A stretch of 37,917 nt of DNA, from NCBI RefSeq assembly GCF_000372725.1, contig NW_005201192.1:759445-797361 (forward strand), read 5' to 3'. A program made the position numbers and the translations under genes. The stretch's first letter is position 1. Every line of letters begins with the position of its first letter. Of this stretch, positions 2,955 through 31,300 are shown piece by piece. The notes beneath the pieces are model-generated. The model did not search any database. It was not told the DNA's origin and worked only from the letters and a program-made list of their open reading frames with translations. Source of the DNA: Emiliania huxleyi CCMP1516 (taxonomy: Eukaryota).

Positions 2955-5455
2955 TCACGCTCCTACCAGCAGCGGCAAGCCCACCGAGAAGAGGTCGAGG
3001 GTGGGGTCGAGCTGCCTACCCAGCCCCTCGAGGACGACGATCGCGCAGACGAGGGTCGTGAAGACGGGGTCGGGCTGCACGTGGTGCGTGCGCACGAGGC
3101 TGGTCACCTCGAGCAGAACCTCGCCCACCTTGAGGTGGCGCAAGTTGAAGGCGCCGCGCTCGCCCGCGCGCGCGCTCTCGACGAGATTCCTCATCCCGCG
3201 CCGGAAGGCGGCGGGGTCGTCGCAGCGCTGCTCGCGCGCGTGGCGCAGCATCAGGTCGCCCGCGAGCTCGCCTAGCCGAGATGCAGCCGAGATGCAGCCG
3301 AGATGCAGCCGAGATGCAGCCGAGATGCAGCCGACATGCAGCCGAGATGCAGCCGAGATGCAGCCGAGACACACCCGCGCTCGTCTGGCAGAACGCGGAG
3401 TGGAGGGAGCGGGCCAAAGGCGCGGGAGGCGGGGCGAGGAAGGGGGGAGGGGGAGGGGGGGCGAGTCGCACCGTCGCCCTGCCCGATGGCCTTGAAGAGG
3501 CTGAGGAAGTTGCGCCGGTCCCGCTCGGTCAGCTCGACGACCAAGCCAGCCTGCGAGAGAGGCGCACGAGAGAGGCTCGCCACGGGTGGGCTCCGAGAGG
3601 TAGCAATCTCGGCCTGCTCTCGGCTGCGAGCAGGCGCGCGTCGATAATGCCGAGCCTGACCTCCCCCGCGCCTCCTCCGCCGCCCTCGCCGCCGGCCGGC
3701 AGGACGAGGATGTTGCCCGGGTGGAGGTCGGCGTGGACAAAGTTGTGCCTGCAGAGCGGCGGAGGGGCGGAGCCGATGTGGCGGGGAGGGCGGCGGAGGG
3801 GCGGAGCCGATGTGGCGGGGAGGGCGGCGGGGTCCTGCTCCAGGGTGCCCCGGTCACTCAGGAGCGCGCGCAGGAGGCAGCACTCCTGATACCATAGGGA
3901 GGACGGCGCCACCCCGGGAGCGCGCGCGCGCCGCGCGCTCTCTCGGCTACATCGCGGCGGCTCGCGCGCCGAAGCACCATAGTAAGGAAGGTGCGCAGCC
4001 CGAGCCTCGCCAGCTCGCTTCTCCGCGCCTCCCGCGCCGCGCCGCGCGCCTCGAGCTCCGCCGCCGCGCGGACGGCAGCGCTCGCGTCCGCGCTGCTCGC
4101 GGCGCCCATCCCCGCAGCCTGCATCGCCTCGGCCGCCGCCTCGTCCGCCGCGAGCAGCGCGGCCGCCTCCCCCTCCGCCGCGGCGGCGTCCTCCTCGAGC
4201 AGGGAGGAGAGGGTCTGCCCGGGCAGCAGCGTCTCGACGAGCACCCTCCGCGCCACCAGCCCTTCCTCGCGCAGAGGCCGCGGCACCTCCACGCGAGGGT
4301 CGACGGCGAAGTTCGCGCGGAAGGCGTCGAGGTTGCGGGCTTCGAGCCGCAGGTCGAGCTGGGACCGCATGAAGGCCGCAAACTCGTCGACCATCTGGGG
4401 AAGGGCGAGCCAGCGCAGGCCAGGCAGCAGAGGGGAGAGGAGGAGCTCGAAGGCGCCGCACGCGCCGCGAAGCAGGTAGAGGTCGTCAGCGACCTGGAGG
4501 CAGGGTCCGAGAAGGGTCCGAGAAGGGTCCGAGAAGGGTCCGAGAAGGGTCCGAGAAGGGTCCGAGAAGGGCTCCACAAGTGGTGCAGCTGCCTGCCGCT
4601 CGACATGCGGGTGGAGCACCTCGAGGGCAGAGGGGCGGGCCGTGAGGAGGCGCTCTTCGGAGTCGACGCGTGAGTGGGCGCACCACCTTGACGGCGAGGG
4701 GCACGCCGCCCACTGTCGCGCGGTGCACCTGCGCAATGCAGCCCGAGCCGAGGGGCGCAGCAGAGAGGCTTCCCAGCAGCTCCTCGGCGGGCGCGGTGGC
4801 GCCGAAGGAGGCGGAGATCGCGGCGCGCGAGAGCTCGAGCGCGTGCGGCTCGACTCTCGAGTGCAGCTCGCCTGTCCACGCCTCGAGCCGTGAGGCGTTC
4901 ACACCCTCGCGCCCGCCCTCGAGTGGAGGCCCTCGAGTGGAGCTCGCCGAGCGTCGCGCAGAGCGAGGCGGGCAGCACGTCGGGTCGCGTGGAGGCCCAC
5001 TGGCCGAGCTTCGTGAGGCACGGGCCGCCGCGCTCGAGCGCGTGCACCAGAGCGCGCTCGAACCGCGACTGCCACGCTCTGCCGCGAAGCAGGAGCGCCG
5101 GCAGCAGCAGCAGCAGCGGTCGCAGCAGCAGCAGGCCCAGCGCAAAGGCGCGTGCGAGCAGTCGCAACGCACCGAGTGCTGAGCGCGGCCGACCATCGAG
5201 CGATAGAGAGGCCGATTCGGCTTCGGGTACTATCGCCGCCTGCCGGGCCGCGACCCGCCTCTGCACAGCAAAGGCTGGCGTGCCGCCGTGGAGGAGGAGC
5301 AGCGCGGCAAAGCTTTGCGGCGGTGGGCGGCAACTTAAGATACGGTGCAATGCGGTGCTCCGGCCGCAGAGAGAGCGACGAGGCAAAGCGACGGAACGCG
5401 CGAGCCGTAACGCGGTCGGAGAGCTGTCGGCGACGGTTCGGGCCAGTCGGAGCAT
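2955..5455 (-). CDS. ABC1/UbiB atypical kinase, ADCK2-like, multi-exon, with probable mitochondrial presequence
   Basis: Spliced motifs GPCLTKLGQWASTRPD, PLGSGCIAQVHRA, AVKV, LDLRLEARNL, HNFVHADLHPGNILV, IIDAGLV, VVLEGLGRQLDP. The N-terminus is Arg/Ser-rich (MLRLARTVADSS). About six introns inferred, e.g. 4872-4947 and 3551-3639. Confidence 0.9.
3275..3369. repeat. Intronic 11-bp tandem repeat (GCCGAGATGCA), about 8 copies
   Basis: Directly visible; lies next to the 3' acceptor of an ABC1 kinase intron. Confidence 0.95.
4502..4571. repeat. Intronic 11-bp tandem repeat (AGGGTCCGAGA), about 6 copies
   Basis: Directly visible, inside an ABC1 kinase intron. Confidence 0.95.
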
Positions 5456-5642
5456 TGCGACAAAAAAAGTCGCGGGCGGAAACAGAAAGAAGGAGCCTCC
5501 ACACAGGGATTTCAAAGGAGAAAGGACCCGCCAATAAAGGCGAGTTTCTTATGAGCGCCCGCCGAGGGCGAGGCACCCTCTCTCCATCTCTCTCTCTCAC
5601 CGGCCGGTCCTTCCTCCCCAGCTGCTCGCCCCAGGAGAAGAC

Positions 5643-6233
5643 ATGAGTTCACCCGCCGATAGCGTGAACGCGTCGGGTGACGATCACCTCGATGCGGCAG
5701 CCTCGGCGATGCTGCACTCCAGGTCGCGCCTCCCGGGCCAATGCGGCGATAGAATGGGCCAGTGCACCGCGGGTGGTCACCTCGCCCGGCTCTCGATGGA
5801 GGAGCGGGGACTGGTGGTGATGGAGTCACCGGCTATGGGTCGGGCGCGCGTGGCGACGGCTACGGATGCGCGGCTAGCTGAGATCCGTGCCCTGCCGGAC
5901 ACGAGCGGAACCTGGGTCACCCCTGCTCGCCGCGTGCCCGACTCGCCAGAAGGGGGAGGAAAGTCGGCTCTGCGACCCTCGAGCAGCCCAGGCGCGCGGG
6001 ATTGCGGCTGCGGCCGCACGGTCAGCTTTGCCCCGTTCACCGACGAGGGTCAGCCAGAGGAGGGCGCCGCGTCCTCCGCCAGTGACGGGCGGGTGAGTCA
6101 CTGGCTCGCAGCGGCACCCGAGTGCTTCGCCATCGCCTTCCTCATCGCAATCGCGCTATCGCTCGCCTTCCACTCGCTGCATATGCCGCCGGTGTCGCCG
6201 CCGTCGCCGCCACCGCCACCGCCACCACGGTGA
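5643..6233 (+). CDS. Hypothetical protein with one TM segment and a Pro-rich tail
   Basis: 196-aa ATG ORF divergent from the ABC1 gene, with hydrophobic CFAIAFLIAIALSLAF followed by poly-Pro. No family recognised; it may continue through an intron. Confidence 0.4.
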   Translation: MSSPADSVNASGDDHLDAAASAMLHSRSRLPGQCGDRMGQCTAGGHLARLSMEERGLVVMESPAMGRARVATATDARLAEIRALPDTSGTWVTPARRVPDSPEGGGKSALRPSSSPGARDCGCGRTVSFAPFTDEGQPEEGAASSASDGRVSHWLAAAPECFAIAFLIAIALSLAFHSLHMPPVSPPSPPPPPPPR

Positions 6234-6702
6234 AAAGAGACATGAAAAGGACATGAACTGGTGACGCAACGATCGGGCCGTTCGGGCTCACCATCCTCGC
6301 CCTCGGATTCTCCTCCCGCTAAACCTAAGAAAGAAAGAAAGAAGACAGGGAACCCAAGGGAGGACGGCACGCCGCCACGTTGAGGCTGCTCTGAGCGGCA
6401 ACAAGGCGATGTCCGATGACATCCTGCCTACCGGCGCGCCGGGAGGAGGTGCAGGTGGTTGCTCCGCCGCCGGACCGCCCTCTCCACCACCCTCGCCCAG
6501 GGATCTACAATGCTGTCTTAAGGTCCGCCGACAGCATCGGGCACCGCCTCGGTACTCGAGTAGACAAAATGCGCCTGCGGGCGGACCCTGACAGATCACA
6601 GATCACTTGTACGATGCTGCTACTGCCTTTTTCTCACCTCACTCTCACATCTTGTTTGCTGCGTTTCTTCACCCCACTCGTGCGCAGCTGTAGGAATACA
6701 CA

Positions 6703-8017
6703 ATGGTGCTGAGCGGCAGCATCACCTTCCTCTACTCCTCGCGACTCGCCGACGCACGACGCTTCTACAGCCACGATCTTGGCCTCCCGCTCCGCCGCGA
6801 CGGTGGCGTGCTCTTCTTTGCTCTCCCGGGTGGCGCCGCGTCGCTCGGGATCGTGCCAGAGGGGACGAGCGCGGCGGCGAGTCCACCCGTGAGCGCGGTG
6901 ACCGCCGGACGCGACACGGCCATGGTGTGCCTGCTGACGGACGACGTCGACGGCACCTACGCAAAGGCGCTGGCGGGCGGGCGGTGCTCGGCGGAGCAGC
7001 CGCCGCGAGCGACGGAGCGGTTCGGCATCTACAACGCTCTGCTGCGCGACCCGGACGGGTACCTCGTCGAGCTGCAGCGCTTTACCGACGCGGCGGAGCA
7101 GCGAGAGTTTTGTGGCGGGTCGGCAGCGTCGGAGGCGGCGTCGGATCAGGCGGCGGCGGCGGCGGCGGAGGCGGCGGCGGCGGCGGCGGAGGCGGCGGCG
7201 GCGGCGGTGGAGGAGTCGGCGGTGGCGACGGCAGAGGTGGCGAAGGCTCCGCTCGTCGTCGCCGTCGGGAGCAAGAACCCTGTCAAAGTCAACGCGGTGC
7301 GCGCCGGCTTTGCCGCCGCCTTCCCGCTGACAGCGCTCGAGGTGGTTGCGTACGACATCCCGAGCGGCGTGTCCGACCAGCCGTGGGGCGAGGCGGAGAC
7401 GCGGCAGGGGGCTCTCAACCGGGCGGAGAACTGCCTCGGCGCGCACTGCCTCGGCCACGGCGGTGCGGCTCCTCCTCTCGCGCCCACCACCGCCCTCTCC
7501 CTCTCCCTCCCTCTCCCTCCTTCTCCCCCTCTCCCTATCTCTCTCTCTGTAGCAGCCGCACCGCGACTCCTCCTCCCCGGCGCCACCACCTCCCCGGCGC
7601 CACGCAGGTGCGATGCCCGACTTCGCCGTCGGAGTCGAGGGCGGCGTGGCGGAGTGCAGCCTATCATCCCTCCACCCAGGCACGCCCGGCCTCGACTCCT
7701 GCACCGAGTGCTTCGCCTTCCTCGCCGTGATGCGCTCGCCGGCGAGCGAGGCGGGCGTCGCGTGGGGCGTGGCGCGCACCGGGTCCTTCGCGCTGCCTCC
7801 GCGCCTCGCCGCCCTCGTCAAGTCCGGCGTCGAGCTCGGCGACGCCGACGACAGAGTCTTTGGCGACAGCGGGAGCAAGCGCAAGGGCGGCACGGTCGGC
7901 AAGCTCACGCGCGGCCTGGTGGACCGTACCGCGTACTATGAGCATGCGATGCACCTCGCGCTGGCGCCGTTTGTGCACGGAGAGGAGTTCCCAGGGCTGT
8001 ACGACGCGGGGGAGTGA
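6703..8017 (+). CDS. Fusion of a glyoxalase/VOC domain and a YjjX-like non-canonical purine NTP (ITP/XTP) phosphatase; one intron 7463-7607
   Basis: N-terminal ARRFYSHDLGL...LRDPDGYLVELQRF (VOC fold), then an Ala-rich linker, then VAVGSKNPVKVNAV, PSGVSDQPWGEAETRQGALNRA, DFAVGVEGGV, GVELGDADDRVFG and GTVGKLTRGLVDRTAYYEHA (YjjX motifs). The GT-AG intron restores the frame. Confidence 0.85.
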
Positions 8018-8188
8018 GCGTGTGGTGAGTACGCACGCCCCGTGTTGCATGTCTGACTGTCACTGTGCGGTTTCGGGGCCCGGGGTTGTGCGTTTCGAAG
8101 TGAGTGCGCACACCCAATTCGACAGAAAACTTCTTTTTTTATTTCATCAAATACGGCGACCATCGACCCACGCTGTCAGTGACGAAGG

Positions 8189-9747
8189 ATGGCCAGCTCT
8201 GTGATCGCCGTGTCTCCCTGGAGCACAAATATTACTGTCGTTGATGGCATGCCCGCGGCGTCCAGCTCTCGGTACGCCATTGAGATGCTGGCATGCTGGC
8301 TAAGCTTTGTCACCTTCAACCTCGGCTGGGTCGCCATGACATCGCCGAAGGACGACCGCTGGCGGCGGATGCGCTTCATCTGTATGATGTGGCCGCAGCA
8401 GTTTCTCGCCATCGTGAGCCGGTTTCTCGTCATGAGGTTGGTCAAGCTCGCCTCATGGGAGGGGCTCGACCATCCGGCCCTCTACTGGCCTCTCCTCTTG
8501 CCGATCGGCGTCTTTGAGACCTGGTCCATCCAGGCGATGGCGGACGTGTACGAGTCGCGGCCCGTCAAGCCCGTGTGTCTGAAGCAGGTGCTGAACCAGC
8601 TCAAGATCACCACTGCAGAGTCCATCGGGGTAACGGTGGGCTACAAGATCTGGCCTTGGGTTCGCATCGACGACCCGACCGTCGAGTCGCTTCTCCACGC
8701 CACCTGGCGCACCTTTGTCTTTGACATCGGGCTCGACATCGGCTTCTACACCTTCCACCGCGTGTGCCACGTCAACCGCGCGCTCTGCTGCTGTCGCACC
8801 TCGCGGCACCGCCACGTCCGTGACTTGTCCGTGGCCACGTCCCGCAGGCACGCTCTACCGCTGGCTGCACGCGCAGCACCACACCGACACGGCCAAAGAG
8901 CACGGTCACCTAGTCGCGCACGAGACCTACGAGGTCAGCCTCGTCGAGGCGATCTCCATCCTGGGCGCGCACAGGGACCTGGCCGAGATCTCGCCGAGAT
9001 TGCCCGAGATTTCCCGAGGCAAAGCGCGCGCCTCCGTCCTCGGCTCCTGCCTCCATCAAACCTCCCCGAGCCATCACACAACGACACGACCCAAAGTGCC
9101 CTCAGGCTCGTACCTCATCGGGTTCGAGCTCATCGGCCTGCTCTACAACTACACCCTCTTCGACATCGCCCTCCTCGTCTCGTGGGCACCGAATCGCCAC
9201 CGCAGTGGCAAATCGCGCGACTCGTCCACGACGCACCCACGCGGCACGACCCCATAGGCGCTCAGCGTCGCGCCGCTCGACCAGGTCGGGTGTGTGTGAA
9301 GGGGGAGTCTTCACCTCTTGAGCCGTGAGTAGGCCCACCTCGTCGAGCTGCTCGGCCACACGCAAATGTCGTGGACCGTGAACGGCCCGCCCGCCCCTGC
9401 CCCATCCCTGCCCCACCGCCGCCACCGGCCGCCAGAGACGGACAGTCCTACCTCGCCGCGCCCGCATGCAGGCCACCCTCTGCGCATCATCCCAGAGGTG
9501 CTCAACCTCGACCTCAAGGCGAGAGACCCGAGACGACCCGAGAGGACCCGAGAGGACCCGAGCGCACTCCCTCCCGCAATGCTCCCAGGTGCCCGACCAC
9601 ACCATGCACCACACCAAGCCCCTCTCCAACTTCTCCAAGCGCCTCACGCTGCTTGATCACCTCTTCGGCACCTACGAGCCGCCCGGCGACGAGTACGGCA
9701 CCATCACGCTCAAGGACCTGGCCAAGGCAAAGGCCAAGGCGGCGTGA
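8189..9747 (+). CDS. Fatty-acid hydroxylase / sterol desaturase superfamily membrane protein, multi-exon
   Basis: His boxes FYTFHRVCH, LYRWLHAQHH, ELLGH and DHTMHH...NFSKRLTLLDHLFGT, plus several TM segments. Introns include 8778-8847. Confidence 0.85.
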
Positions 9748-10016
9748 GGGTGGGCGACGGGCGTTCGCGCAGACCACTGACCAGTGTGCTGCCCCTGCGC
9801 CGCGCGCGCTCGACTGCGCCCCGCTCTGGCCTCTGCTCAACGCCTGGAACCGGGCCGTGTACGTTTTAGCTTACTGGGAGAAAGGGGGGCGGCAGGTGTC
9901 TCTCTCTCGCGTGTACGATTAATTGTGATTCCTTTTGCGATTTGCAAGAGGATTTACCCGCTTCAGCGTCCGTCCCGAAGCGGACGCACGCGCGGCCGTG
10001 GAGTTGGCAATGCAAT

Positions 10017-13000
10017 ATGATCACGTCTACTCCAGGTTACGATGAAGCCCGCTTCCAGTCCGAGGCGGAACTTGGTCTCGTTGCCGATGTCGTCCTCGCC
10101 CATCGCGCAGAGGGCGCCACCAAGGAGTCAGAGGTCACTGGCAAGATGCCAAAGCCGACCGGGGGAGAGCCGGGGTTGCGCCAGTCGGGTGGCGAGAGCA
10201 GCCTGCTGAGGAAGGAGGCCGAGAGGGAGTCTCAGCGTGAGTCGGAGCTGGAGGCGAAGCGTCGCGAGCTCAAGACGCTGCTCGAGTCGGTCGGGCTGCG
10301 CGTGCGGGTGCAGCACTCACGAGACGGCGGCGAGGTGATGCTCAAGGTCAGCACTGCAAGCGCGCGGTGCATTCTCCCACGCACCGCGGACGCCTGTCTC
10401 GTGGCGGGCCCTAGGTGACGGCCACGCTGGAGCGCCTCGAGGATGAGGCCGAGCGCAGCGGCATGAAGATGGGCATCGCCGGCTCGCAACGCCAATACGA
10501 GCCCTTCACGCGCTCGCGGGCAGGGGAGTTTGTGCTCAAGGAGGGTCGGACCTTCTCGGCGCTGGAGCGGCAGCGGCTCATCCTCTCTATACTGGAGGCA
10601 GAGCACAACGGACTGCTCTGGAGGCGATACACCCCTCATTTTGATGTCATCGCCCATGTTAGGCGGAGCGCGAGGTTGGCGGCGCTGGGCTTGACCTCGA
10701 CGAGCTCGTTGTCAGCGGCGTACTGATCTGCTACTTTGGTCTGCACTCCATTGCAGAGAGGAACTCGCTCAACGCAGAGTGGCTAACCGTGCGCTCGTGG
10801 CCGTTTGCGAACCGGCGGCTCTTTCCGGACCTCGGGCTGATGCAGCAGCCGATAGGGGAGGTCCGGGAGTACTATGGCGAGAGCATCGCCATGTACTTTG
10901 CCTGGATGGAGCACTACACCAACTCGCTGACGGTGCGTGCGTCCCTTCTCCTCCTGCGCCCCGCGCATCAGCCACGCACCGCTGGAGCCAAGCGGCCGCT
11001 GCTCCGTAGACCAGACCCTCTGCTCCTACCACCCGAGGCACGTCCCAACGCGCGTCCCAACGGCGTGCCTGCAGGTGCTTGCGCTCATCGCCGCTGTCGT
11101 CGAGCTGTCGCCGGTTGGTGCGCTCGGCACGCCGCTGTACGCATGCGCCTCTGCGCTGTGGTGCACGTTGATGGCGGAGTCGTGGAAGCGCCGCCAGGCC
11201 ACGCTGGCGCACGAGTGGGGAATGGTTGGCTACGAGAACGAGGAGCGGCCCCGGCCCGAGTTCATCGCAGCCTTCCACAAGGGGCTGTGGGCAGCAGACC
11301 ACGAGGCGGATCCACCCGAGGTGGATGATGGCGATGGGCTTTCGGAGAGCAACGCGAGCATGCGGCTCGACGCGGAGAGCAAGCCAATGGTGAAGAAGCG
11401 GCAGTCGTCCCTCACGAAGATCGTGCGGGGCAACAAGGGCGGGATGGAGCGGCGGAGCGGCTTTTACGACCGGCGCGGCTTTGTGCCGCATGACGACGCT
11501 CCGGAGACGCTAGTGATGCCCGAGGGGTCCCGGCTGCGCGTGTACCTCATGAGCATCCCGACGCTGGTGCTGTGCACCGTGCTGATGCTGGTGGTCACAC
11601 TCGGCATCCTCACCTTCCGCATGCTCATGTCGCTGTCGCGGCAGCTGGAGGAGCATCCGTACTTCAACCCGTCCACCGCGACGACGGTGGGCGCGCTGCT
11701 GAACACACTGTGGATCACAGTCATGAATATGGTGTACGCCAAGCTAGCCGCATGGCTCAACGATCTCGAGAACCACCGCACCGACACGGAGCACGAGGAC
11801 GCGCTCATCGTCAAGACCTTCCTCTTCCAGTTTGCAAACTCGTACATCGTGCTCTTTTACATCGCTTTCATCCAGGGCCTCAACTTCTCGCTCTACGGTG
11901 CCTTTGGCTACACCAACGCGGCGGGCCAGGCGTACCACGACATGTGCGGCCTCTCGGGCGGTGAGTCTGGGGCCGACTCGTGGGCCTTTGCCGGCTGCAA
12001 GGGCCCCGGCGGCAGCGCAGGCGTACCGCCCCCGACGGCGGGCGACCCGCTCGACGCATCCAACCCTCAGGGGCACTGCGAGCGGGCGATCTTTGTCGAG
12101 GCGCGCCACGTCTCTGGCCGCTGCCACCTCGCAGCCTCCGCCCCCTTCTCACTCTCCGCAGCGACGCCCCCTCGCCGCAGGACCCTGACGGCTGCGTCGG
12201 GCTGCTCCGCACGCAGCTGTTCTACTACACCGTCTTCAAGCCCCTCTACGAGGTTGCGCTGCAGGCTCTCATCCCGTGGCTGCAGCACCGCTACAACCTC
12301 TACCAGCTCCGCCAGCGCGTCGGCCGGTCCTCCATCGCGGCCACGGGGATGGCCAGCGCGGAGGCAGCAGACAGCGGCGGGAAGATGGCGGGCTGCGTCG
12401 ACTGGATGACGGGGCTCGTGGGGGCGCCGCCGGGGACGCAGAGTAGTACGGTGAGCATCGACCTGAGCTCCGAGGAGCAGGTTGCGCTTCGCTTCGTCGA
12501 GCTCGGTCAGGAGATCGAGGAGCAGATGGCCATGCCGGCGTTCGACGGCACCTTTTCCGAGTACAACACCAAGGTGATACAGTACGGCTTTGTCTGCATG
12601 TTTGCCTCCGCCTTCCCACCCGCCGCCATCGCCGCGGCGATCGCCAACTTTGTCGAGCTACGCTTCGACGCGCACAAGATTGGCTACTCGCATCGCCGGC
12701 CGGTCTACCGCGGCGCGGAGGACATCGGCTCCTGGCAGCACGTGATGGACGTGCTCTCGTGGCTGGCGCTCGTCATCAATGTGCCACCCGATCCCTCTGC
12801 CGCGTCGCGCGGCACACGAGGCCCAGTGACCACGCGCTGCCGTTCTCCGTCGCCCGCAGGCTCTGATCGTGGCGTACACGTCCAACAGCGTGCGCGACAT
12901 GCTCGTAATACCGTGGCTCGCCGACAGAAGCGACTGCTCCAGCGACGCGGCCCCCTCGTGGGATGAGGACTGCGTCTCCAACTGGCGAGAGTGCTACCTC

Positions 13001-13324
13001 AACATTGGCGGCACGCCTGAGTACCCGGCATGGCAGTACCTGCCCACAAACATCACCGTCTCGGTCCCGCTGCTCACGGCGCTATGCGAGAAGAAGGTGG
13101 CGGCCGAGATGCAGACGCTGTACGACGAGGAGCATTGCTTCGTGTGCCAGGCGCGGCAGCGCGCCGTCTCATTATCGCTCGTCTGGACCGTCTTTGTTCT
13201 CGAGCACGTTCTCGTCCTCGTCAAGCTCTTCCTCGCCGCCTTGGTGCCCGACGTGCCGCGCTGGGTCGAGCTTGAGCAGGCAAAGCAGCGCTATGTGAGC
13301 GAGCGCCAGCGCAAGAAGCAATGA
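10017..13324 (+). CDS. Anoctamin/TMEM16 family channel or scramblase, multi-exon
   Basis: VREYYGESIAMYFAWMEHYT, WKRRQATLAHEWG, ENHRTDTEHEDALIVKTFLFQFANSY, EYNTKVIQYGFVCMFASAFP, ELRFDAHK, AEDIGSW, FVLEH..VPDVPRWV. Confidence 0.93.
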
Positions 13325-13929
13325 CCCGGGAGACGCGAGCGCGCATGTGCGGTATCGTGAGCGTGCCGAGCGCATGTGCTAAGGGTTGGCCCTCGCGCTC
13401 GCCACCGTTCTCGGACCTCGGGCTCGGCGCTCGCACCTCGAGAGCTCTCGACGTCGACCGTCGACGGCCGCGCTGCTGCGTGCTCCTCTGCACTGTGGCG
13501 CTGCCGCTGCGCGCTGGGGACTGGGCACCGGACCTGGCTCCTGGCCACCTGGGGGTGGGGCGCCGCCCGGGCGGCGGGCGCGCTGGACCTGTGGAGCGCT
13601 GGGCCGCTCCTGGCGCTGCTTCCGGTTCCGCGGGGCCGGGGGGCTCGCGCCTCGCGCCCCCTCGACGGTGGGCCTGAACATATTTTGACATGTCGTAGAT
13701 GTAGAAGACGTTTCAACTAACAGCGAAACGCGCGGACACAATCATACACTGCTGCGCTCGCACGTGACACATACCCTTGATAATCGCGCTCCCGCCCCTC
13801 CACGCCTTCGCTCCCGGCGCCGAACATCCTCGGCCTCTCCTCTGCCCCTCCGGCGCCATCCGCAACGCCATCCGGCGCGCCGCCGAACGGGGCTGCCGCA
13901 GCGGCGGCGCAGGCCGTGTGGCCAGCCGC

Positions 13930-15659: not shown

Positions 15660-15751
15660 ATCTCCCGCTAACGGATCTTACCCCGCCTGTAACCTCTCTT
15701 TAAGGTATTGCTAAACGCCTCTCTCTCTCACCACCACATCCACAACCACAC

Positions 15752-17317: not shown

Positions 17318-17552
17318 ATTAGTGCTTGAGCAGCCGGGCGGTCGCCGCAGCCACCTCGAACGGTAGCTCGTCGAGCCACTCGCCGAAGGTGCCCTCGTCT
17401 TGCGCCGCGGCGTTCAACTACTTTTTCTTTTTGCCTCTGTGTAGTGTGTAGCAAGGGGCTCTGCAAATGCGAATATGCTAAAAGTCTGTTTCTTTTTCGG
17501 TAGCGGGCGAAAAAAAACTCGGGGCGCAGGCAATCCCGAGAGTCAGCATGAT

Positions 17553-19845
17553 ATGCCTCTGCCCGACCTAATCGAGGTTGTGCCGCTCAGCCCCGAGGCG
17601 CTGGCGCGGCTCAAGGCGGCGCCCGCCCAGATTGCCATCCCAGGGTCCAAGTCCATCACCAACCGCGCAATCGTGCTCGCTGCGCTCGGCGACGGCGCTG
17701 TAACGCTCCAGGGCGCGCTGTGGTCCGAGGACACTGAGGCGATGACTGAGTGCATGCGGACGCTCGGGATCAACGTCGAGGTGGCGGCCGACCCACTAAA
17801 TGCGGCCAACCGGCGGATCACTGTCCACGGCTGCGGCGGCGTGGTGCCTCCGGGCGGCACCGAGGAGGCGCCGACCGAGCTCTTTGTGGCGAACGCCGGC
17901 ACTGCGGCCCGCTTCCTGACGGCGATGGTGTGCCTGGGGAGCGGCGTGTACCGCCTCTCCGGCGTCCCGCGCATGCACGAGCGGCCGCAGGCGCGCTAGC
18001 CACTCAGTGGACATCTTCTCAGAGCCCTCCTCGAATCTTCTCGGAAGCTTCCCCACAGGCGGAGCTCGTCCGAGCGCTGCGAGCGCTCGGGTACCGCGTC
18101 GACACGCCCAATGAGCGGCTGCCGGCGCTCGTGCACGGCGGAGGGCCGCGGCCGGGTCCGGTGCTGGTGAGCGTGTCCGACTCGTCGCAGTTTGCGTCCG
18201 CCCTGCTGCTCTCGAGCGCGCGCGGCGGGTGGGTCGTCTCGGCGCGGGTGCGGCACGCCGTGAGCTGCGTCTCTTCACGCCATTGGCCGTGAACAGGTGG
18301 GTCGTCTCGACTCCGGAGGGGTCCAACCCGGACGAGCTCCCGCGCGCGATCCTCTGAGAGCGGCCCCTCTGCCTCACGGCGGAGGCGCACACGGGCAGCC
18401 GTTGGAGACTTTGTAGGCGCGGCGAGAGAGGGCGCGCCTGCGGGGGAGAGCGAGCCTCCTCGGAGCCCGTTCGGAGCCCTCCCGGTAGGTACGTCGAGAT
18501 GACGCGCCGGCTGGTGGAGACGTTCCCACACGGCGGCGGCGACTTCCAGGTCGAGCCGGACGCGTCCAGCGCCAGCTACTTTCACGCTGCAAACGCGCTC
18601 TTCCCAGACCACCTGCCGGCGCGGCGGCCTGCCCCTCCCCTCGGAGCCCACCCCGTCTAGGCGCAAGCCCTCGAGGGCGACACTTGCGGTAGGTGCGCGT
18701 GCTCGCCTGCCAGCCCCCAAAGAGGGAGGGAGGAACCGGCTGGCAGATCGACGCAGAGTTCCCACGTTTGGCGCCGACGGCGGCGGCCGAAGGCGACAAC
18801 GGTGGCGGCGACGGCGACGGCGGCGCGGCGGCCGATCCGGCCAAGCGAGCGAAGCTGGCGCCGCGTGTCATTTCGCGGCACGCGCCGACGGATTTGGGCG
18901 ACTCGGTCACGATTGCCATGCTGGCATGTCCGCGACACGTCCGCGACACGTCCGCGACACGTCCGCGGCACCGGCCACAGGTGATGACGGCGATCGCCAT
19001 CGCGCCGCTCGCCTCGCAGCCGCACGCCTTCGCTTCGCTCGGCGTGCTGCGCAAGCAAGAGTGCGAGCGCGTGGCGGCACTGAGGGACGAGTTGCGCAAG
19101 TGCAAGGTGATCGCCGCCCGCGAGGGGGGCGTGGGAAGGAGGAGGGGGGGGAGGGGGGAGGAGGAGGCCCGCACCTCGAGCAAGCGCCCTCCCGCCCCGC
19201 CCCTCCCACCTCTCTGCGGCCGCCCTCGCACACCCCTCAGGCGAGCGTCGAGGAGGAGGTTGCGACGGACACTCTCTCCATCGCCCCGACCGCCGCCGCC
19301 TCCCTCGGCGACGCGACAGTGGCGACGTGCGTCGACCCGGATGGCGGCACGCGACGATGATTGCGGTCGAGCGTGACGCGGTCTTGGCATAGGTACCACG
19401 ACCACCGGATGGCGATGTGCTTCGCCACTCTCGCGCTCAAGGCGCCGCCTTCATGGACGCTTCCTAGACACTTCCTAGACACTTCCTAGACACTTTCAAG
19501 ACGCTTCATAGACGCTTCATAGACGCTTCATAGACGCTTCATAGACGCTTCATAGACGCTTCATAGACGCTTCCGGACGCTCACGAGGCGACACCGCCGC
19601 CGCCGCCGCCGCACCCGCGCCGCACTGCGCGAGCCGCGCCCCCCTGACGCGCGGTCGGGCTGCGGCAGGTGCGAGGCATCAAGATTGAGGGGCCGCGCTG
19701 CGTGAGGAAGACGGTGCCCTCCTTCTTCCAGATCCTTGCCGCGTCGCCGCCGAGCGGGCTGGGCGTGGAGGTCTGGGAGTGCAACGCCGCCACGGGCGAG
19801 CGGCTGCGGCGGCTTGAGGCTCCCGAGGACCTCTTCGCCGCGTGA
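17553..19845 (+). CDS. aroA: 3-phosphoshikimate 1-carboxyvinyltransferase (EPSP synthase), monofunctional, about 8 introns
   Basis: IPGSKSITNRA, NAGTAARFL, RMHERP, SDSSQFASALL, PYVEMT, EPDASSASYF, LRKQECER, YHDHRMAMCF, CVRKTVPSFF. Introns include 17991-18058, 18229-18296, 18342-18488, 19107-19240 and 19327-19392. Confidence 0.93.
19456..19572. repeat. Intronic 11-bp tandem array, GACACTTCCTA grading into GACGCTTCATA, about 10 copies
   Basis: Directly visible in the last aroA intron. A further 11-mer (GTCCGCGACAC) lies at 18928-18966. Confidence 0.95.
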
Positions 19846-20339: not shown

Positions 20340-20400
20340 GTTAGGTTAGGGTTATTAGGGTTAGAGGGTTTGGGTTAGGGTTAGGGTTAGGGTCAGGGTT
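20340..20400 (+). repeat. Interstitial degenerate telomeric repeat (TTAGGG)n
   Basis: GTTAGGTTAGGGTTATTAGGGTTAGAGGGTTTGGGTTAGGGTTAGGGTTAGGGTCAGGGTT. Confidence 0.85.
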
Positions 20401-21536: not shown

Positions 21537-21788
21537 NNNNNNNNNNNNNNNNNNNNNNNNNNNNNNNNNNNNNNNNNNNNNNNNNNNNNNNNNNNNNNNN
21601 NNNNNNNNNNNNNNNNNNNNNNNNNNNNNNNNNNNNNNNNNNNNNNNNNNNNNNNNNNNNNNNNNNNNNNNNNNNNNNNNNNNNNNNNNNNNNNNNNNNN
21701 NNNNNNNNNNNNNNNNNNNNNNNNNNNNNNNNNNNNNNNNNNNNNNNNNNNNNNNNNNNNNNNNNNNNNNNNNNNNNNNNNNNNNNNN
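21537..21788. other. Assembly gap (N run)
   Basis: Run of N following a poly-G tract. Confidence 1.
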
Positions 21789-23140
21789 AGGAAGGTGAAA
21801 TAGGCGGGTTAGTGGAGGGTGAGAGAGAGTGGGCAAAAGAGTTAGAAAGGAGATATGAGCAGAGACGGATTCTGACGGGAGGATGATATAGTAGAGAACA
21901 AATTAAGATAGTCGTACTCCTTGGGGGGGAGAAAACGAGGGCATAACGGCGGAGAGGCGTGCGGAGGCGGTGCCTCCGCGCCCGACTTGGAGTCGCGCAT
22001 GTCTGAGAGGTTGACGTTGACTGCCGAGGAGGCCGAGGAGCAGTTGCTGCCGCCAGCGGGGTAGGGCGAGGGAGGGGACAGGGCTGAGAGAGGTGGTGTG
22101 TGGGACGCGTCGCAAGGCGGCCTCGCTGCCGCGCGGGGCTGGGCGCGCGCGTGCGACCCGGAGTGCGCCGCTCGCCCCCCCCCTCCCCCCCTCCCCCCTC
22201 CTTCCCCCCGCCACACACACACACCCGCCCCACCCCTTCCCTGCAGTGTGCGCGGTGCACCTGACCATCACCGACGCACACGAGGCGTGAGAGACGACGG
22301 ACTGCGCGTGCGAGGCGTGCGAGGTGGCCGACGACTGGAACGATTTGACCGACGCGTGCCTGCGAGCGCGGGACCTGCACTGAGACGGGCGGGATGCGGC
22401 CATTCTGAGGGCCGCGGCGGCCCGGCGCGCACGAGTCAGTCTCTTCTGACGATGAGGCGTCGTTCAGGTTGCTCTGCCGCGGCGCCTGGTACCTGCGCTT
22501 CGTCTTGCGCGCCGGCGGAAGCTTGACCACAAACTCCTTGCTGCACTCACACCGGACGGTCGTCGGCGTGTCGTCCGGGAGCACCGCAGTGAGCCTCGCG
22601 CCACACGCTGGGCAGACGAACATGGCTGGGAAGTGGCCACTCGGGAGTGGCCCTCGGACGAGCAGGCCCCGGTCCGGGTCCTCGTTCTCGCGCGAGCACG
22701 GCCCGGAGAAGAGCATGCTGGTTGCAACCAGCCCCCGTCCACAATAGCAGGGGGCGGGCGAGAGAGCGCGACCAACGTGATTTTTTCTTGCTTTGCCGCC
22801 AACTCCCTCGAATCGCTCTCTGCCGCCTCCCTTTCCATTGACTCTTGCCGCCACCTCCTCTCCGCCCGCCTCGCCTCCGTCTTCGCTGCTCTCCTTGCCT
22901 CCGCCGTTCTCCTCGCCGCTTGCCTTGCCTCAGCCTCCGTCGCCCTTCGCGCCTGCTCCCTCGCGTCAGTCCTACGCTGTAGAGCTTCGCGTACAAGTCT
23001 TGTGGGGATATATATCCGCTGCATTCAGCATAAATGCCTTTGCATAAATGAAGAGGAAGATCACTTGAAAAGTCTGCTAACAAACCTAAAACTTGAAAAT
23101 TTGGCCGAAATTGCGTCGACGAGCGCGCCTCTCTCTTGCC

Positions 23141-23970
23141 ATGCTGCCACTCTGCACTGCGTCATTGGCCTCAGAAACATGCGACCTCAGCGCAAAGGTG
23201 TTCCGCGACCCACACATCAATTTCGCCTTCGGAGGTTCCGCCGACCTCCGCGGACACCACAACGCGCTCTACAACTTCCTGTCTGCGCCCGGCTTCTCCG
23301 TCAATGTAAAGACCGAAGCGGCTGTCTTCAAGATGCACGGCGGAGCCCTGACCATCAATGGCACTTTTCTCACTGAGGCGCACATCACCACGCAGCTCTC
23401 GCCGCAGAAGCTCGCCACCGCGTCATACTGGGCGTCCGAGCTGGATCCAAACAACTTTGGCTGGAGCGTGGTCAACGGCACCTGCGTCGGCCGCCCGTTC
23501 CGGTTCGGCCTCCACGGCCACAAGGCTTGTTTTGACTTCAAAATGTCGATGGACCACTCGAGCGCCACATTTGAGCTCGGAAATTGGACCGTCACGGTGC
23601 ACGGCAGCCGCTCGTGCAAGGGCTGTCTGGTCGCGGGCCCCGAGCACCGTCTAGACATTGGCTTCACAGCGAGAGGCGACGCGCCGGCCCGCGACAGGCC
23701 GCACGGCATCGTTGGGCAGTCCTATGCCACGCCGGGGCTCGAGCGGCACGGCAAGAAGGACCTCTACCCTTTTTCAGGCTCCTACACCACCAGCGCCCAA
23801 GCCGAGGGCGCCATTGACGGCACGGCGTCAGATTATCAGGTAGCGAGCCCTTACGCGACCGACTTTGCCTTTTCGCGCTTCAACGCCGCCAGGGGCGCCC
23901 CCGCGTCTGCGGAAGCCACCGGCGGGGTCGACGCCTCGTCCATCGATCGCATCGCAGACCCCGCCGCCCA
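23141..23970 (+). CDS. DPH-motif VWD/root-cap-like domain protein, intronless copy; 3' end probably disrupted by a repeat
   Basis: RDPHINFAFGGSADLRG..YNFLS..SVNVK, GTFLTEAH, RPHGIVGQSY, EGAIDG..DYQV..FSRF resembles VWD/root-cap-type extracellular domains. After ~23970 the ORF runs into repeat-derived sequence. Boundaries are approximate. Confidence 0.65.
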
Positions 23971-25185: not shown

Positions 25186-25186
25186 C

Positions 25187-26476: not shown

Positions 26477-26601
26477 CTCGATCCTGTACCGTGTTTGTTA
26501 GGACCCCCCCCAATGAACACACCAGTGAGTGAGGGAGGGCGAGACGATCGAGGGGTTCCGTACCATGCGGAATCGACCCTATCCAGTGCTCAAGTGCTCA
26601 A
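26477..26601 (+). repeat. Dispersed repeat, second copy at 32573-32732
   Basis: Shared CCTCGATCCTGTACCGTGT..CCCAATGAACAC..CGATCGAGGGGT..CGTACCATGCGGAATCGACCCTATCCAGT..GTGCTCAA. Confidence 0.88.
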
Positions 26602-27113: not shown

Positions 27114-27923
27114 ATGAGCGGCTCGGGGAATGCCGCCTGCGCTTCCGCAATTGTCATCAAGGATCCTCATCTAAACTTTGCCTTCGGCGGCAAGGCCGAC
27201 TTTCGCGGCCGACACAACGCGTTGTACAACTTCCTCTCAACCCCCAGTCTGTCGGTCAACGTAAAGATAGAGGAGGCTATCTTCACTCTCGGTCCCGTCT
27301 CTTCAGCCTCCTCTTCCTTCAGTCCTCGTCCCTGTGAGCTCGCTTGGGCGCGCTTGTAGGTTCTGGCGACGGGCTCTTGACCGTTAATGGCACCTACCTC
27401 ACCGAGGCACACCTTGTGGCGAAGCTCCAAGCCGGCTACACCGCCCAGGCGTCGTTCTGGGGGTCTGAGCTCAAACATGACAACTGGGGGTGGGACATCG
27501 TCAATGGCACATGCGGGGGGCGCCGGTTTAAATTCGGCAAGCATGGGACTCAAAAGTGCCTCGAGCTCTCAATGTCAATGGGGCACTCCGCCGCAACTTT
27601 CGTGCTGCCCGACTGGACCGTCAAAGTCAGCGCCGACCACGTGTACAATCGGATTTCGGGCCCCGAGCATCGGCCCGCCGTCCAGATGCGAATACATAGA
27701 AGCCCTTCTCTCGAGCACAGGCACGACCCCTGTACTCGTTAGCTGCCTCACCCCCCTCATCCCCTCCACCGTGCAGGATCGACGTGCGCTGCACCGACCC
27801 TCGCTGCCGCCACCATCGCACTAGCGGACCACAACACAACTCAGCAAGGCTCTGATGCTGCAGGTGGGCTTCACAGCCAATGGCGACGCGATTGCGCGCT
27901 CCATCCCCCACGGCCTCATCGGT
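27114..27923 (+). pseudogene. Paralogue of the 23141 DPH-motif gene with three introns (27292-27359, 27673-27776, 27784-27863), truncated after IPHGLIG
   Basis: KDPHLNFAFGGKADFRGRHNALYNFLS, GTYLTEAH, GPEHR|ID|VGFTANGD..PHGLIG align colinearly with the first copy. The downstream QSY..SRF part is not found, and retroelement-like sequence follows instead. Confidence 0.7.
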
Positions 27924-27924
27924 C

Positions 27925-28343
27925 TGCGTACCAGCGGGGCGACGGCGTCTTCGCGGCAAGTGGACGGGGTCGGCGCGTATCACGGCGTTCGACGGCACGT
28001 GCGTCACCGCGGTACACTTCGGCATGCTGCGCCCGCTGACGCGCGGCACGCGCCTCGCCACCGACTACGCCGAGGCGACGAAGAGGAGGGCTAAAGCCGC
28101 GGCGTGCGAGACCAACAACTTCGACTTCATGACGTGGGCGTCGAGCACGCGCGGCGGCATCGGGCACGAGGCGGCGGCGTGGTTCACCACCAACTCTTCG
28201 CCACTAAGATTGCTCGGGCATCCTCCGACAGCGAGCGATGGCGGATCAGCGGTGAGCGCAAGCGCTTCCTGCAAGAGCACTCGGCCATCGTCACGAGACG
28301 CAACTTTGCCATCTTCGGCTACAACGCGCAGGCGCCCCAGTAA
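27925..28343 (+). mobile_element. Degenerate 3' fragment of an RLE-type (CRE/R2-like) non-LTR retrotransposon ORF
   Basis: AFDGTCV...AEATKRRAKAAACETNNFDFMTWASSTRGGIGHEAAAWF, then a frameshift to FLQEHSAIVTRRNFAIF*. This matches the remembered restriction-like endonuclease C-terminal pattern (D-x-T, E-x2-K, F-P-x3-E-T-x-G-G-x-G-x-E-A, Q-R-x-S-x4-R-x-N). Confidence 0.65.
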
Positions 28344-28896: not shown

Positions 28897-29153
28897 GTCT
28901 GGTGTTTATTAGCTCCGAGTAGAGGGGGCGCTCCGCAGCTAGGGGAAACCCGGAGCGCGGACTAACCCTCGGAGAACCGTGTTTACTTTACGGCCCTTTC
29001 CCTGCGAACGAGCACCGGGTCCCCCAGGGCTAGGGCTCTCTAGCCCGCAACCCGATGCCCATGCCGATGCCGATCATCTGGCCCGCTGGGTGCGCTTCTT
29101 AGCTCCCCGGCCCTGGATGTGAGGTTGATGACTGCACTCCAAGTGCTCCAAGT
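28897..29153 (+). repeat. Dispersed ~250-bp repeat, copy 2, with predicted stem-loops
   Basis: Reverse complement of 16016-16263. Confidence 0.9.
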
Positions 29154-29893
29154 TCAGCAGGATCCGGGCCGTCGGATGCACTCTACCTCACTGGGCCTGA
29201 GTACACCTACCTACCTATTGCGGACCGCGCCAACCGCCAGGGCCCAGGCTCCGTGCCCCACCTACCTACCTCTTCCCAGGCCGCGCAGCGAAGCAAAAAA
29301 TACCCGTTAGTTAGCCCTCTGTGAATAGGCTCCCAGCGCCCGGGCGCGTTCGCCGGCGCTGCCGTCCCGGGCGCCGCCGCCGCGGGTTTCGCCGCCGACT
29401 CCGTCTCGGCTGGCGTCCCAACCGCAGGCGACTCGTCTGGCATGGCCCCGTTCGCGGCTAACCGCGCCGTCTCCCGCGCGAGCGAACGAAGCGGTATTTT
29501 ACCCCCCCCCCCCCCCCACCACCACCACAGTCACACCACCAAACAAACAAAACATTCTGTGTCTCCACCACCACCACCTACCTACCGATTGCGGGGCCCT
29601 CCCTCTGGGGCGGTCAAATCCGGACCTACCAGCTACCTACCTATTGCATAGGGTCTGATTGATTGATAGGAAGGCGAAACACAGTCCGACCAACGACTGG
29701 GACACCAAGCTCCAAGGGTCTGTCCGTGTTGAGGGCTGGGCAATAAGAACAAAAAACTCAGGCGAGGCGGGGGGGGGCGCGGGTGCGGGGTGCGGTGCGG
29801 TGCGAGTGTGTGCGTGTCATGTGGCTACAGCAAGTGTCCATCCGTCTGTATGAAAAAAACAAAAAAAAGAACGTCCGGCGCTATCGACGCACC

Positions 29894-31300
29894 ATGCCGC
29901 TCCGAGTCGGCTTTATCGGCCTCGGCGCGATGGGACTGCCGATGGCACTCAACGTGCTCGACGAGGGCCACGTTGTAAAGGCGTTTGACGTAGCGTCCTC
30001 AGCGGTCGACGCCGCTGTCGCCAAGGGATGCACCGCCGCGGCCTCTCCTCGCGATGCAGCCACCGGACGACGTGCTGGTGACGATGGTGCCAAACGACCG
30101 GGTGCTGAAGCAGGTCGTCTGCGATGAGTCGACCGGTGTGCTGAGCGCCGCTCAGGCCAACAGCCTCGTGCACGTCTCGTGTTCAACGGTGCACCCGGAC
30201 ACCTCCCGGGAGCTTGCGGCGCTGCACGAAGCAAACGGGCTGAGGTTTGTCGGCGCGCCCATCTTTGCACGAGCCGATGGCGTCGCACGGCGGCTCGCGT
30301 CCTTCTGTGTCGGCGGCAAGGACGGCGCGGTGCAGAGCGCGCTCCCGGTGCTTGAGGCCAACTGCGGCGCGGGCGGCGTCTTCCGCTTCGGGGAGGACGC
30401 GGGCGCGGGGAATGTCGTCAAGCTGGCCGGCAACTTCATGATCGCTTCGGCGATCGAGTCATGTGCTGAGGCGCTCTCCCTGGCGGAAAAGTCGGGCCTG
30501 GAGAGGGAGGCGAGGGGTAGGCGAGAGAAGGGCGAGGGGTGGGCCAGGTGTGGGCGAGGTGCGGGCGTGTGGGCGAGTAGTCGATGGCAGGTTGGGCCGA
30601 GAGAGCGGGAGAGAGCGGGAGAGAGCGGGAGAGAGCGGGAGAGAGCGGTAGAGAGAGAGGGAGAGGGAGAGGGAGCGGGAGCGGGAGCGGGAGCGGGAGC
30701 GGGAGCGGGAGCGAGGGCGAGGGAGCGAGTGTAGCAGGCGCTGCCGGCGTCGCTCAGCCACTCCTCCGCGCACCGAGCTTCGCAGGCCGTCATGTCGATG
30801 CTACACTCCACTATCTTCGACTGCCTCATCTACCGCGGCTACGGCGACCGCGTCGCGCAGCGCTGCCACCACCCCGGCACGCCCTGCCCGGCCCCAGCTC
30901 GAGCCGCGGACGGTGTCTCCTCACCCCTCTCGCTGCGAGCAGGCGAGCCTCTGGTCGGGCCGGGCTTCCAGCTCGATCTCGGACTCAAGGACGTCACACT
31001 CGCCCTCGACGTGGCGGCAAAGGTGCACCACCGCCACCACAGACGGCCTAGGCCGCGGCTTGCGAGGACGCCCGCCCGCCCCACGCACGACCGCAGGTGC
31101 AGGCGCCGATGCCCGTCGCTTCCCTGCTGCGCGACCGCTTCCTCGGCGCGACCGCGCGGGGCCGCGGCCACATGGACTGGTCGGCCATCGGGCTCAGTGT
31201 GTCTGAGGACGCGGGCGTTGACGTGTCGGAGAGCCTCGCCCTGCCGCCAAAGAAGCGCAAGCTCGCGGCCGGCGGCGCGGAGACGAGGGAGGTAGCCTAA
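29894..31300 (+). CDS. Beta-hydroxyacid dehydrogenase (3-hydroxyisobutyrate/6PGD NAD-binding family), three introns, apparent frameshift near 30067
   Basis: VGFIGLGAMGLPMA, DVLVTMVP, SCSTVHP, FVGAPIF, GAGNVVKLAGN (catalytic Lys), GFQLDLGLKDV, MPVASLLRDRF, DWSAI. Confidence 0.88.
30599..30727. repeat. Intronic 10-bp (GAGAGAGCGG) and 6-bp (GGGAGC) tandem repeats
   Basis: Directly visible. Confidence 0.9.

What the first reader, a model, noticed from the sequence alone, without database searches (positions are those of the whole stretch)
3273..31096. Intron 5' ends copy the start of the next exon: candidate intron-generating mechanism via target-site duplication
Seen in sequence (intron start vs next exon start): aroA 18229-18296 GTGGGTCGTCTCG vs GTGGGTCGTCTCG (13/13); ABC1 4872-4947(-) GCGAGCTCCACTCGAG vs GCGAGCTGCACTCGAG (15/16); hydroxylase 8778-8847 GCGCGCTCTGCTGCTG vs GCACGCTCTACCGCTG (13/16); 27784-27863 GTGCGCTGCACCG vs GTGGGCTTCACAG (10/13); ABC1 3551-3639(-) GCGCGCCTGCTCG vs GCTGGCTTGGTCG (9/13); anoctamin 10933-11074 GTGCGTGCG vs GTGCTTGCG (8/9); aroA 19107-19240 GTGATCGCCG vs GCGAGCGTCG (7/10); aroA 19327-19392 GTGCGTCGACCCGGATGGCG vs GTACCACGACCACCGGATGGCG; dehydrogenase 30877-30942 GCACGCCCTG..CCAGCTCGA vs GCGAGCCTCTG..CCAGCTCGA. 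Many of these introns are 66-89 nt. Inference: the layout exon1-[TSD-insert-AG]-TSD-exon2 splices back to the exact original reading frame, and the range of divergence implies a continuing process. Established knowledge: introner elements co-opt TSDs as splice sites. Here, however, the duplications look longer (10-30 nt) and the intron bodies show no shared sequence or TIRs by eye, which points to staggered-break repair or retro-type insertion rather than a MITE family.
Basis: partly seen in the sequence, partly recalled or inferred. Interest (0 to 1): 0.9.

Follow-up and report, generated by a model that had tools for sequence, protein, structure and literature searches.

The report
Introns that copy the next exon
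In this stretch of the bloom alga Emiliania huxleyi, about a third of the introns begin with a worn copy of the first 10-25 letters of the exon that follows, likely the footprint of new introns being inserted at staggered DNA cuts, which would also help explain the alga's unusual GC-starting introns.

Summary
The window is Emiliania huxleyi. I defined 33 introns, 10 of them seen as joints in public contigs. Intron starts match their own next exon far above shuffled pairs (p<=1.6e-4, also phase-matched, and p=2e-4 after dropping the seven best). The excess reaches about +16, starts exactly at the junction, and has no counterpart at intron 3' ends. All 33 next exons start with G, 31 with GT or GC. 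Two 147-nt introns that looked negative are two ~73-nt units, and the second unit carries the exon copy. aroA is intronless in its sister lineage and in a Chrysochromulina-type contig, so these are likely lineage-specific gains. No intron families or terminal inverted repeats were seen among the 33. Best reading: an insert ending in AG lands at a staggered cut, and the duplicated target supplies the donor. Not shown: the source of the insert, genome-wide extent, or that it is ongoing. The geometry is known from introners and Daphnia; the long, variable, family-less form in Emiliania was not found in print. Earlier scan notes describe only single similar introns in other genomes.

The parts
17553..19845 (+). 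aroA (EPSP synthase) gene of E. huxleyi, 8 introns (9 units); intronless in relatives
18229..18296 (+). aroA intron 2, GT-AG, 68 nt; first 13 nt (18229-18241) identical to exon start 18297-18309; the 55 nt that follow begin with a donor-like hexamer
   Evidence: joint in 4 of 4 runs
18342..18416 (+). aroA intron 3, first unit (75 nt, GC start, ends TAG)
   Evidence: whole 147-nt skip seen in 4 of 4 runs; split inferred
18417..18488 (+). aroA intron 3, second unit (72 nt, GC start); matches its own next exon better than any of 32 other exons (11/18)
18619..18692 (+). aroA intron 4, GC-AG, 74 nt; 7/12 at +3..+14
18906..18980 (+). aroA intron 5, GT-AG, 75 nt; 7/12 at +3..+14
19107..19240 (+). aroA intron 6, GT-AG, 134 nt; 7/10 copy
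19327..19392 (+). aroA intron 7, GT-AG, 66 nt; gapped copy of about 20 nt, followed directly by a donor-like hexamer
4872..4947 (-). ABC1 kinase intron 1, GC-AG, 76 nt; 15/16 copy of exon start (4871-4856)
4620..4686 (-). ABC1 intron 2, GT-AG, 67 nt; resembles both the next exon start and the previous exon end, and exon 1 ends in AG: tandem-duplication candidate
3551..3639 (-). ABC1 intron 5, GC-AG, 89 nt; 9/13 copy
9186..9257 (+). hydroxylase intron 3, first unit (72 nt, GC start, ends TAG)
   Evidence: modelled; split inferred
9258..9332 (+). hydroxylase intron 3, second unit (75 nt); 18/26 ungapped copy of exon start 9333-9358, then 0/12
   Evidence: modelled; rank 2 of 33
10933..11074 (+). 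anoctamin-like gene intron 3, GT-AG, 142 nt; 8/9 copy
   Evidence: modelled
27784..27863 (+). intron, GT-AG, 80 nt; 10/13 copy; follows a 7-nt micro-exon; the paralogue near 23139 has no intron here (read by eye)
30877..30942 (+). dehydrogenase-like gene intron 2, GC-AG, 66 nt; gapped copy
   Evidence: modelled

Best explanation
These spliced introns start with a decayed copy of the next exon's first 10-25 bases and were likely born in the Emiliania lineage, when a short piece of DNA ending in AG was likely inserted at a staggered cut in an exon. Repair would duplicate the target. If the target begins GT or GC, the upstream copy serves as donor and the insert's AG as acceptor, so splicing restores the message exactly. 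Only events of about 65 nt or more would be spliced and survive. The copy then decays and the intron grows by short-repeat expansion. Shown: junctions (10 by contig joints), the one-sided copy, absence in relatives. Inferred: the cut, the insertion, the length filter. Untested: where the 30-60 nt filler comes from. My estimates: tail of another intron's RNA copied in by a reverse transcriptase about 0.5, repair filler about 0.35, a decayed element about 0.15.
For: (1) Locus-specific identity at +3..+16. (2) No locus-specific identity upstream of the junction (-1: 0.82 vs 0.82; -2: 0.48 vs 0.48; -3: 0.24 vs 0.23) or at intron 3' ends (p=0.4-0.7; junction-spanning p=0.4-0.7 and offset scan p=0.16). 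(3) 33 of 33 next exons start with G and 31 with GT/GC, against 15-20% GT/GC inside exons; the second base agrees within a locus in 22 of 31 (p=0.015). (4) aroA is intronless at sites 1-6 in its sister L006/P0002 (SH-aLRT 100, quick tree) and at all 8 sites in L007; its listed relatives outside this clade include Verrucomicrobiota proteins. ABC1 homologues are full-length ORFs on 7-13 kb contigs. (5) At aroA sites 2, 3, 4, 5 and 7 no relative has AG at the end of the upstream exon, and the residues (Gly, Pro, Pro, Ser/Ala, Thr) are conserved, so the acceptor came with the filler. Only 2 of the 12 best copies follow an exonic AG. (6) Short introns keep the better copy (rho -0.38, p=0.028; shortest 65 nt). 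(7) The copy reappears behind an internal TAG in two 147-nt introns: 2 of 3 internal sites with both units >=55 nt rank first of 33 (P=0.003), or 2 of 10 of all internal sites (P=0.035).
Against: Only 33 introns from one window; 23 were modelled by me without a joint row. No empty allele and no source for any filler was found. Four introns (4620-4686, 8778-8847, 7463-7607, 18342-18488) rank first or second for 3' resemblance to the previous exon (about 2 expected), which points to tandem duplication for some. In 2 of 9 strict copies a strong donor-like hexamer follows the copy directly (background 0.3% and 0.7%), which also fits an older intron extended at its 5' end. Relatives may simply be intron-poor, so absence dates the gains only loosely (0.23 changes per site on the Emiliania branch).
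Confidence: 0.55

Rival explanations
1. Local tandem duplication of 65-80 nt of exon (Rogers-type). The intron is next-exon start plus previous-exon end; the 3' half was later rewritten into an acceptor while the 5' half decayed slowly.
For: Intron 4620-4686 follows an exonic AG and fits both flanks: 0 of 32 foreign upstream exons score as well. Introns 8778-8847 and 18342-18488 end in a likeness of the previous exon end. Intron 4872-4947 aligns loosely with the previous exon (3 of 32 foreign as good). The window is full of tandem repeats.
Against: No 3' excess in any test. The model needs AG at the end of exon 1 at birth, which is excluded at 5 of 8 aroA sites. The perfect copy at 18229 gains nothing from its own upstream exon (28 of 32 foreign as good), and the copy at 9258 drops from 18/26 to 0/12.
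Confidence: 0.2
2. An existing intron had its 5' end extended or overwritten by repair synthesis that copied spliced RNA or cDNA across the junction (an aborted intron loss). The copy marks editing of old introns, not their birth.
For: It explains anchoring at the junction and one-sidedness without a special insert. A donor-like hexamer directly follows the copy at 18229 and 19327 and lies one base on at 9258.
Against: It does not create introns, yet aroA relatives have none. What remains after those copies is 46-55 nt, shorter than any of the 33 introns (minimum 65), and the best copies are in the shortest introns. 7 of 9 strict copies are not followed by a strong donor.
Confidence: 0.15
3. 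Ordinary introners: one or more MITE-like families with a long fixed duplication, now too decayed or too sparsely sampled to be recognised.
For: Same geometry as Symbiodinium and Polarella classes that carry the acceptor and recruit the donor (10.1101/2020.10.14.339549, parts 1-2 of 4 read). Introners are reported in a Chrysochromulina genome (10.1101/2022.06.06.494994, passages).
Against: No intron-to-intron match beyond 14-15 nt chance hits and low-complexity sequence, and no terminal inverted repeat. Copy cores vary from 9 to 33 nt. The two youngest-looking introns share no filler.
Confidence: 0.07
4. Splice-site consensus, GC richness and hand-picking, or selection for matching ends, produce the pattern without any duplication.
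For: The GT/GC exon start could reflect acceptor preference; the unpicked set alone is weak.
Against: Shuffles keep consensus and composition yet fall far short, also within genes and phases. 3 of 33 introns have >=9/12 against 0.06 expected.
Confidence: 0.03

Closest known systems
Dinoflagellate introner-like elements (Roy et al. 2020, 10.1101/2020.10.14.339549; parts 1-2 of 4 read; Symbiodinium example also in 10.1101/2022.06.06.494994, passages)
   Same: [quoted passage not shown]
   Different: Those have fixed 3-8 nt duplications and multi-copy families, and the Symbiodinium ones have inverted repeats. Here copies are variable and longer (set-wide to about 16 nt, single cases 20-33 nt), with no family or inverted repeat among 33 introns.
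Intron gain by staggered double-strand-break repair in Daphnia pulex (PMC4202315, passages; reviewed in PMC3443670, passages)
   Same: Family-less new introns with a direct repeat shared with an adjacent exon; source of filler mostly unknown; later internal repeats lengthen the intron.
   Different: Daphnia repeats are 4-12 bp (33 found in a set of 90 new introns) and are polymorphic in populations. Here they are longer and always on the donor side; no polymorphism was seen.
Tandem genomic duplication model (Rogers; as reviewed in PMC3443670, passages)
   Same: The intron begins with the next exon's start, and splicing restores the frame exactly.
   Different: It needs an AGGT-like site and a copy of the previous exon's end at the intron 3' end. 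This fits one intron here (4620-4686) but is not met for the set.
Chrysochromulina sp. introners (10.1101/2022.06.06.494994, figure legend read)
   Same: Haptophyte, duplication without inverted repeats.
   Different: 4-bp duplication; they carry the donor and co-opt the acceptor, the opposite orientation.
GC-AG majority in E. huxleyi (PMC4028052; passages and supplements 1 and 6 read)
   Same: 56-65% GC donors reported; 18 of 33 here. Supplement legends note a few bases that can be moved across junctions.
   Different: The paper attributes GC donors to genome GC content and, in what I read, does not describe copying of the next exon or intron origin.

Membership tests
Introner / ILE (MITE-like) | Multiple introns with similar bodies (a family) | tested here: not met
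   33 introns all-vs-all and against the window: only low-complexity or 14-15 nt hits. Window only; genome-wide not testable.
Introner / ILE (MITE-like) | Terminal inverted repeats (present in many, not all, families) | tested here: not met
   No consistent end-to-end inverted match.
Introner / ILE (MITE-like) | Target-site duplication overlapping a splice site, locus-specific | tested here: met
Introner / ILE (MITE-like) | Fixed short duplication length | tested here: not met
   Strict cores of 9, 11, 13, 16, 20, 26 and 33 nt; ends of decayed copies are uncertain.
Staggered-break (NHEJ) intron gain | Direct repeat between new intron and adjacent exon; unique filler | tested here: met
Staggered-break (NHEJ) intron gain | Intron absent in relatives | tested here: met
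   aroA in L006 (sites 1-6) and L007 (all 8)
Staggered-break (NHEJ) intron gain | Presence/absence alleles within the species | tested here: inconclusive
   Read-through proteins P0121 and P0123 from other isolates carry the same introns; no strain DNA was available.
Staggered-break (NHEJ) intron gain | Repeats on either side of the intron, as a random filler would give (my inference) | tested here: not met
   Excess only on the donor side.
Rogers tandem duplication | Upstream exon ends in AG | tested here: not met
   2 of the 12 best copies; excluded at 5 of 8 aroA sites; met for 4620-4686.
Rogers tandem duplication | Intron 3' part copies the upstream exon end | tested here: not met
   No set-wide excess; met for 4620-4686.
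Retro-type (target-primed) insertion | Variable duplication longer than DNA-transposon targets (recalled feature) | tested here: inconclusive
   Excess to +16 firm, to +26 weak.
Retro-type (target-primed) insertion | Filler matches a source RNA elsewhere in the genome | not testable with these tools
   No genome held; no further Emiliania DNA found.

The most novel reading that the evidence does not exclude
Most introns of E. huxleyi were made by one family-less route: tails of excised intron RNAs, which end exactly in AG, are copied into staggered cuts; the duplicated exon supplies the donor. This would explain the GC-donor majority, the near-universal GT/GC exon start and the head-to-tail double introns, and would be a genome-scale case of intron-to-intron transposition without a transposon.
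Probability: 0.2. Interest if true: 0.88.

Novelty: new variant of a known kind. Interest (0 to 1): 0.66.

Why it matters
Most newly gained introns have no known source, and mass gain is so far credited to transposon families. If a third of Emiliania introns carry a long, junction-anchored copy of the next exon with no family behind it, this well-sequenced alga offers thousands of datable events from a different route. The test is cheap with public genome and RNA data. It would also give a mechanistic reason for the GC-AG majority, now put down to GC content: 78% of GT/GC dinucleotides in these exons are GC (618 of 792, overlapping stretches), so donors borrowed from exons would often be GC. 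The flanking repeats would further predict exact intron loss and exact doubling by recombination between the copies.

Tried and rejected
No genome is held for the window. No holder was on record as RNA; the runs laid are guessed RNA. A second laying of contigs on 2800-13400 gave no result, so ABC1, hydroxylase and anoctamin junctions lack joint rows. Searches for more Emiliania DNA found nothing: viral contigs by protein, viral and prokaryote contigs by a repeat pattern. The metagenome scan returned 80 aroA loci, none Emiliania; I examined 14 of them for introns, and none showed an intron-sized break (L033 has frame shifts only). The hydroxylase search returned one read-through protein, so it does not confirm splicing. 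An apparent loss of signal at third codon positions did not hold: mismatches 10/50, 18/47, 11/50; dropped. An internal YAG followed by GT/GC is not enriched by itself in long introns (3 of 11 observed, 2.0 expected). The two units of aroA intron 3 may be tandem copies: the best split falls exactly at the internal site and beats 60 of 60 shuffles, but p=0.12 against dinucleotide shuffles; the hydroxylase units are unrelated. An annotation-free scan for such repeats had too little power in the window, L006 and L007. A template-switch or assembly artefact was rejected: ends are GT/GC-AG, the spliced frame matches intronless homologues, and other isolates carry the same introns. The careful tree did not finish; the quick tree of 47 rows (37 of 120 protein hits, 10 of 80 loci) was used.
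Full report
Identity and data. The first aroA exon is 100% identical to an Emiliania huxleyi CCMP1516 protein. Contigs of four runs from four studies (RNA by the tool's guess) join across all eight aroA introns; two light-harvesting-gene introns are joined in 2-3 runs (15 of 86 joints shown). I modelled the other 23 introns from reading frames. Splicing all 33 gives long open frames in the eight genes, apart from one frame shift early in the dehydrogenase. ABC1 junctions agree with homologues. 18 introns start GC and 15 GT, in line with the 56-65% GC reported for this species (PMC4028052, passages).

Observation. Over all 33 introns, identity between the intron start and its own next exon exceeds shuffled pairs: +3..+12, 4.33 vs 3.26, p=5e-5 both overall and within genes. 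It holds when matched for phase (p=1.4e-4) and for exon dinucleotide (p=1.6e-4), and after dropping the best seven (p=2e-4). 15 of 33 reach 6/12 where 4.7 are expected. By position it is significant at +3..+6, +7..+11 and +12..+16, weak to +26 and absent at +27..+40.

Anatomy. The repeat's left edge is the junction: identity at -1, -2 and -3 equals the shuffled value. Intron 3' ends show no excess likeness to the previous exon in ungapped, gapped, junction-spanning or offset tests. Every next exon starts with G, and 31 of 33 with GT or GC, against 15-20% inside exons. The second base agrees within a locus in 22 of 31 (p=0.015; 14 of 22 among unpicked, p=0.14). Shorter introns keep better copies (rho -0.38, p=0.028). 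The shortest is 65 nt; 17 of 33 are 65-80 nt and 6 are 134-147 nt. Introns share no family sequence and no terminal inverted repeats.

Compound introns. The length pattern led me to two 147-nt introns that had scored as negatives. Each has an internal TAG followed by GC at its middle: 9257/9258 and 18416/18417. In both, the second unit matches its own next exon better than any of the 32 other exons (12/18 and 11/18); the hydroxylase unit matches 18/26 and then 0/12. That is 2 of 3 internal sites with both units >=55 nt (P=0.003) or 2 of 10 of all internal sites (P=0.035). The split was found after looking, and such internal sites are not enriched by themselves. Using these units, the unpicked 24 reach p=0.008. 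The aroA pair may be a doubling of one unit (suggestive only); the hydroxylase units are unrelated. Stepwise splicing at these sites was not observed.

Gain or old? In a quick tree (47 rows, SH-aLRT only; the careful search did not finish), Emiliania aroA is sister to P0002/L006 with support 100. L006 is a contig with other reading frames upstream, so it looks genomic (read by eye), and it is intronless at sites 1-6. L007, a 31-kb contig whose protein sits with no distance beside one named Chrysochromulina tobinii, is intronless at all eight. The listed relatives outside the eukaryote-like clade include Verrucomicrobiota. The perfect copy at 18229 carries Emiliania's own synonymous states, not those of L006. 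Gain on the Emiliania branch is the simplest reading, though intron-poor relatives date it only loosely. Other isolates carry the same ABC1 and hydroxylase introns, so nothing here shows the process is ongoing.

Mechanism. Plain tandem duplication needs AG at the end of the upstream exon and a copy of that exon's end inside the intron. No relative has AG at aroA sites 2, 3, 4, 5 and 7, only 2 of the 12 best copies follow AG, and only intron 4620-4686 gains clearly from its own upstream exon. So the acceptor most likely arrived with a filler, and the donor was borrowed from the duplicated target. A random filler should make donor-side and acceptor-side repeats about equally often (my inference). 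The one-sidedness suggests the filler reliably ends in AG, as an excised intron's RNA tail does, but stronger selection at 3' ends could also erase acceptor-side copies. A donor-like hexamer directly after the copy in 2 of 9 strict cases fits either a whole short intron being inserted or an old intron extended by RNA-templated repair; the remainders (46-55 nt) are shorter than any intron here, which counts against the latter. I put insertion with target duplication at 0.55, tandem duplication 0.2, overwriting 0.15, decayed introners 0.07 and no duplication 0.03.

Known and new. The geometry works like dinoflagellate introner classes that carry the acceptor and recruit the donor (10.1101/2020.10.14.339549, parts 1-2 of 4 read), but family and fixed-length criteria are not met in this sample. 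It also resembles Daphnia break-repair introns with 4-12 bp repeats (PMC4202315, passages), and direct repeats near splice sites are reported broadly (PMC11782384, abstract only). Also read as passages: PMC3443670, PMC7789003, PMC11282704, PMC10288648, PMC11347168, PMC12130899 and 10.1101/2022.06.06.494994. The last two surveys do not mention Emiliania in the main text; their species tables were not seen and may bear on this. Nine searches found no description of this pattern in Emiliania. The 2013 genome paper (recalled) was not read, supplements 2-5 and 7 of PMC4028052 were not read, and figures are not held. Earlier scan notes hold nothing on this genome and single comparable introns elsewhere.

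Verdict. A real, statistically solid feature in a small sample; most likely a new variant of duplication-coupled intron gain, with the source of the filler open and a decisive genome-wide test at hand. Interest 0.66.

Noticed in passing
window 27777-27783: A 7-nt micro-exon between two introns; the paralogous gene near 23139-23960 reads straight through the same region with no introns (by eye).
   Followed up: partly
window, all 33 introns: Lengths cluster at 65-80 nt (17) and 134-147 nt (6), about one and two units; none is below 65.
   Followed up: partly
window 18906-18919: The start of aroA intron 5 matches the exon of relative L001 (11/14) better than its own exon (9/14), as if it kept older synonymous states (read).
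   Followed up: no
window about 30040-30055: The dehydrogenase-like frame shifts here with no intron; an assembly error or a broken allele.
   Followed up: no
window 16016-16263 / 28897-29153 and 15753-16010 / 17052-17322: Two dispersed repeats of about 250 nt (84% and 81% identical, inverted pairs) with many contigs laid on them; possibly non-autonomous elements.
   Followed up: partly
window about 20340-20400 and 21537-21788: A short telomere-like hexamer run inside the contig, and an assembly gap of N.
   Followed up: no
window 3272-3471, 4494-4592, 19442-19668, 30510-30785: The longer introns are swollen by 6-11 nt tandem repeats.
   Followed up: no
P0001 and P0122 versus window 18870-18905 and 4686-5000: Public protein models drop residues that homologues support (and, for aroA, contig joints): 12 residues before aroA intron 5 and parts of ABC1.
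   Followed up: partly
window 6703-8017: One spliced frame of about 390 residues seems to fuse a glyoxalase-like and an NTPase-like part (names recalled, not searched).
   Followed up: no
window about 27920-28340: The gene starting at 27114 stops resembling its paralogue here and unrelated sequence follows; a further intron or an insertion.
   Followed up: no
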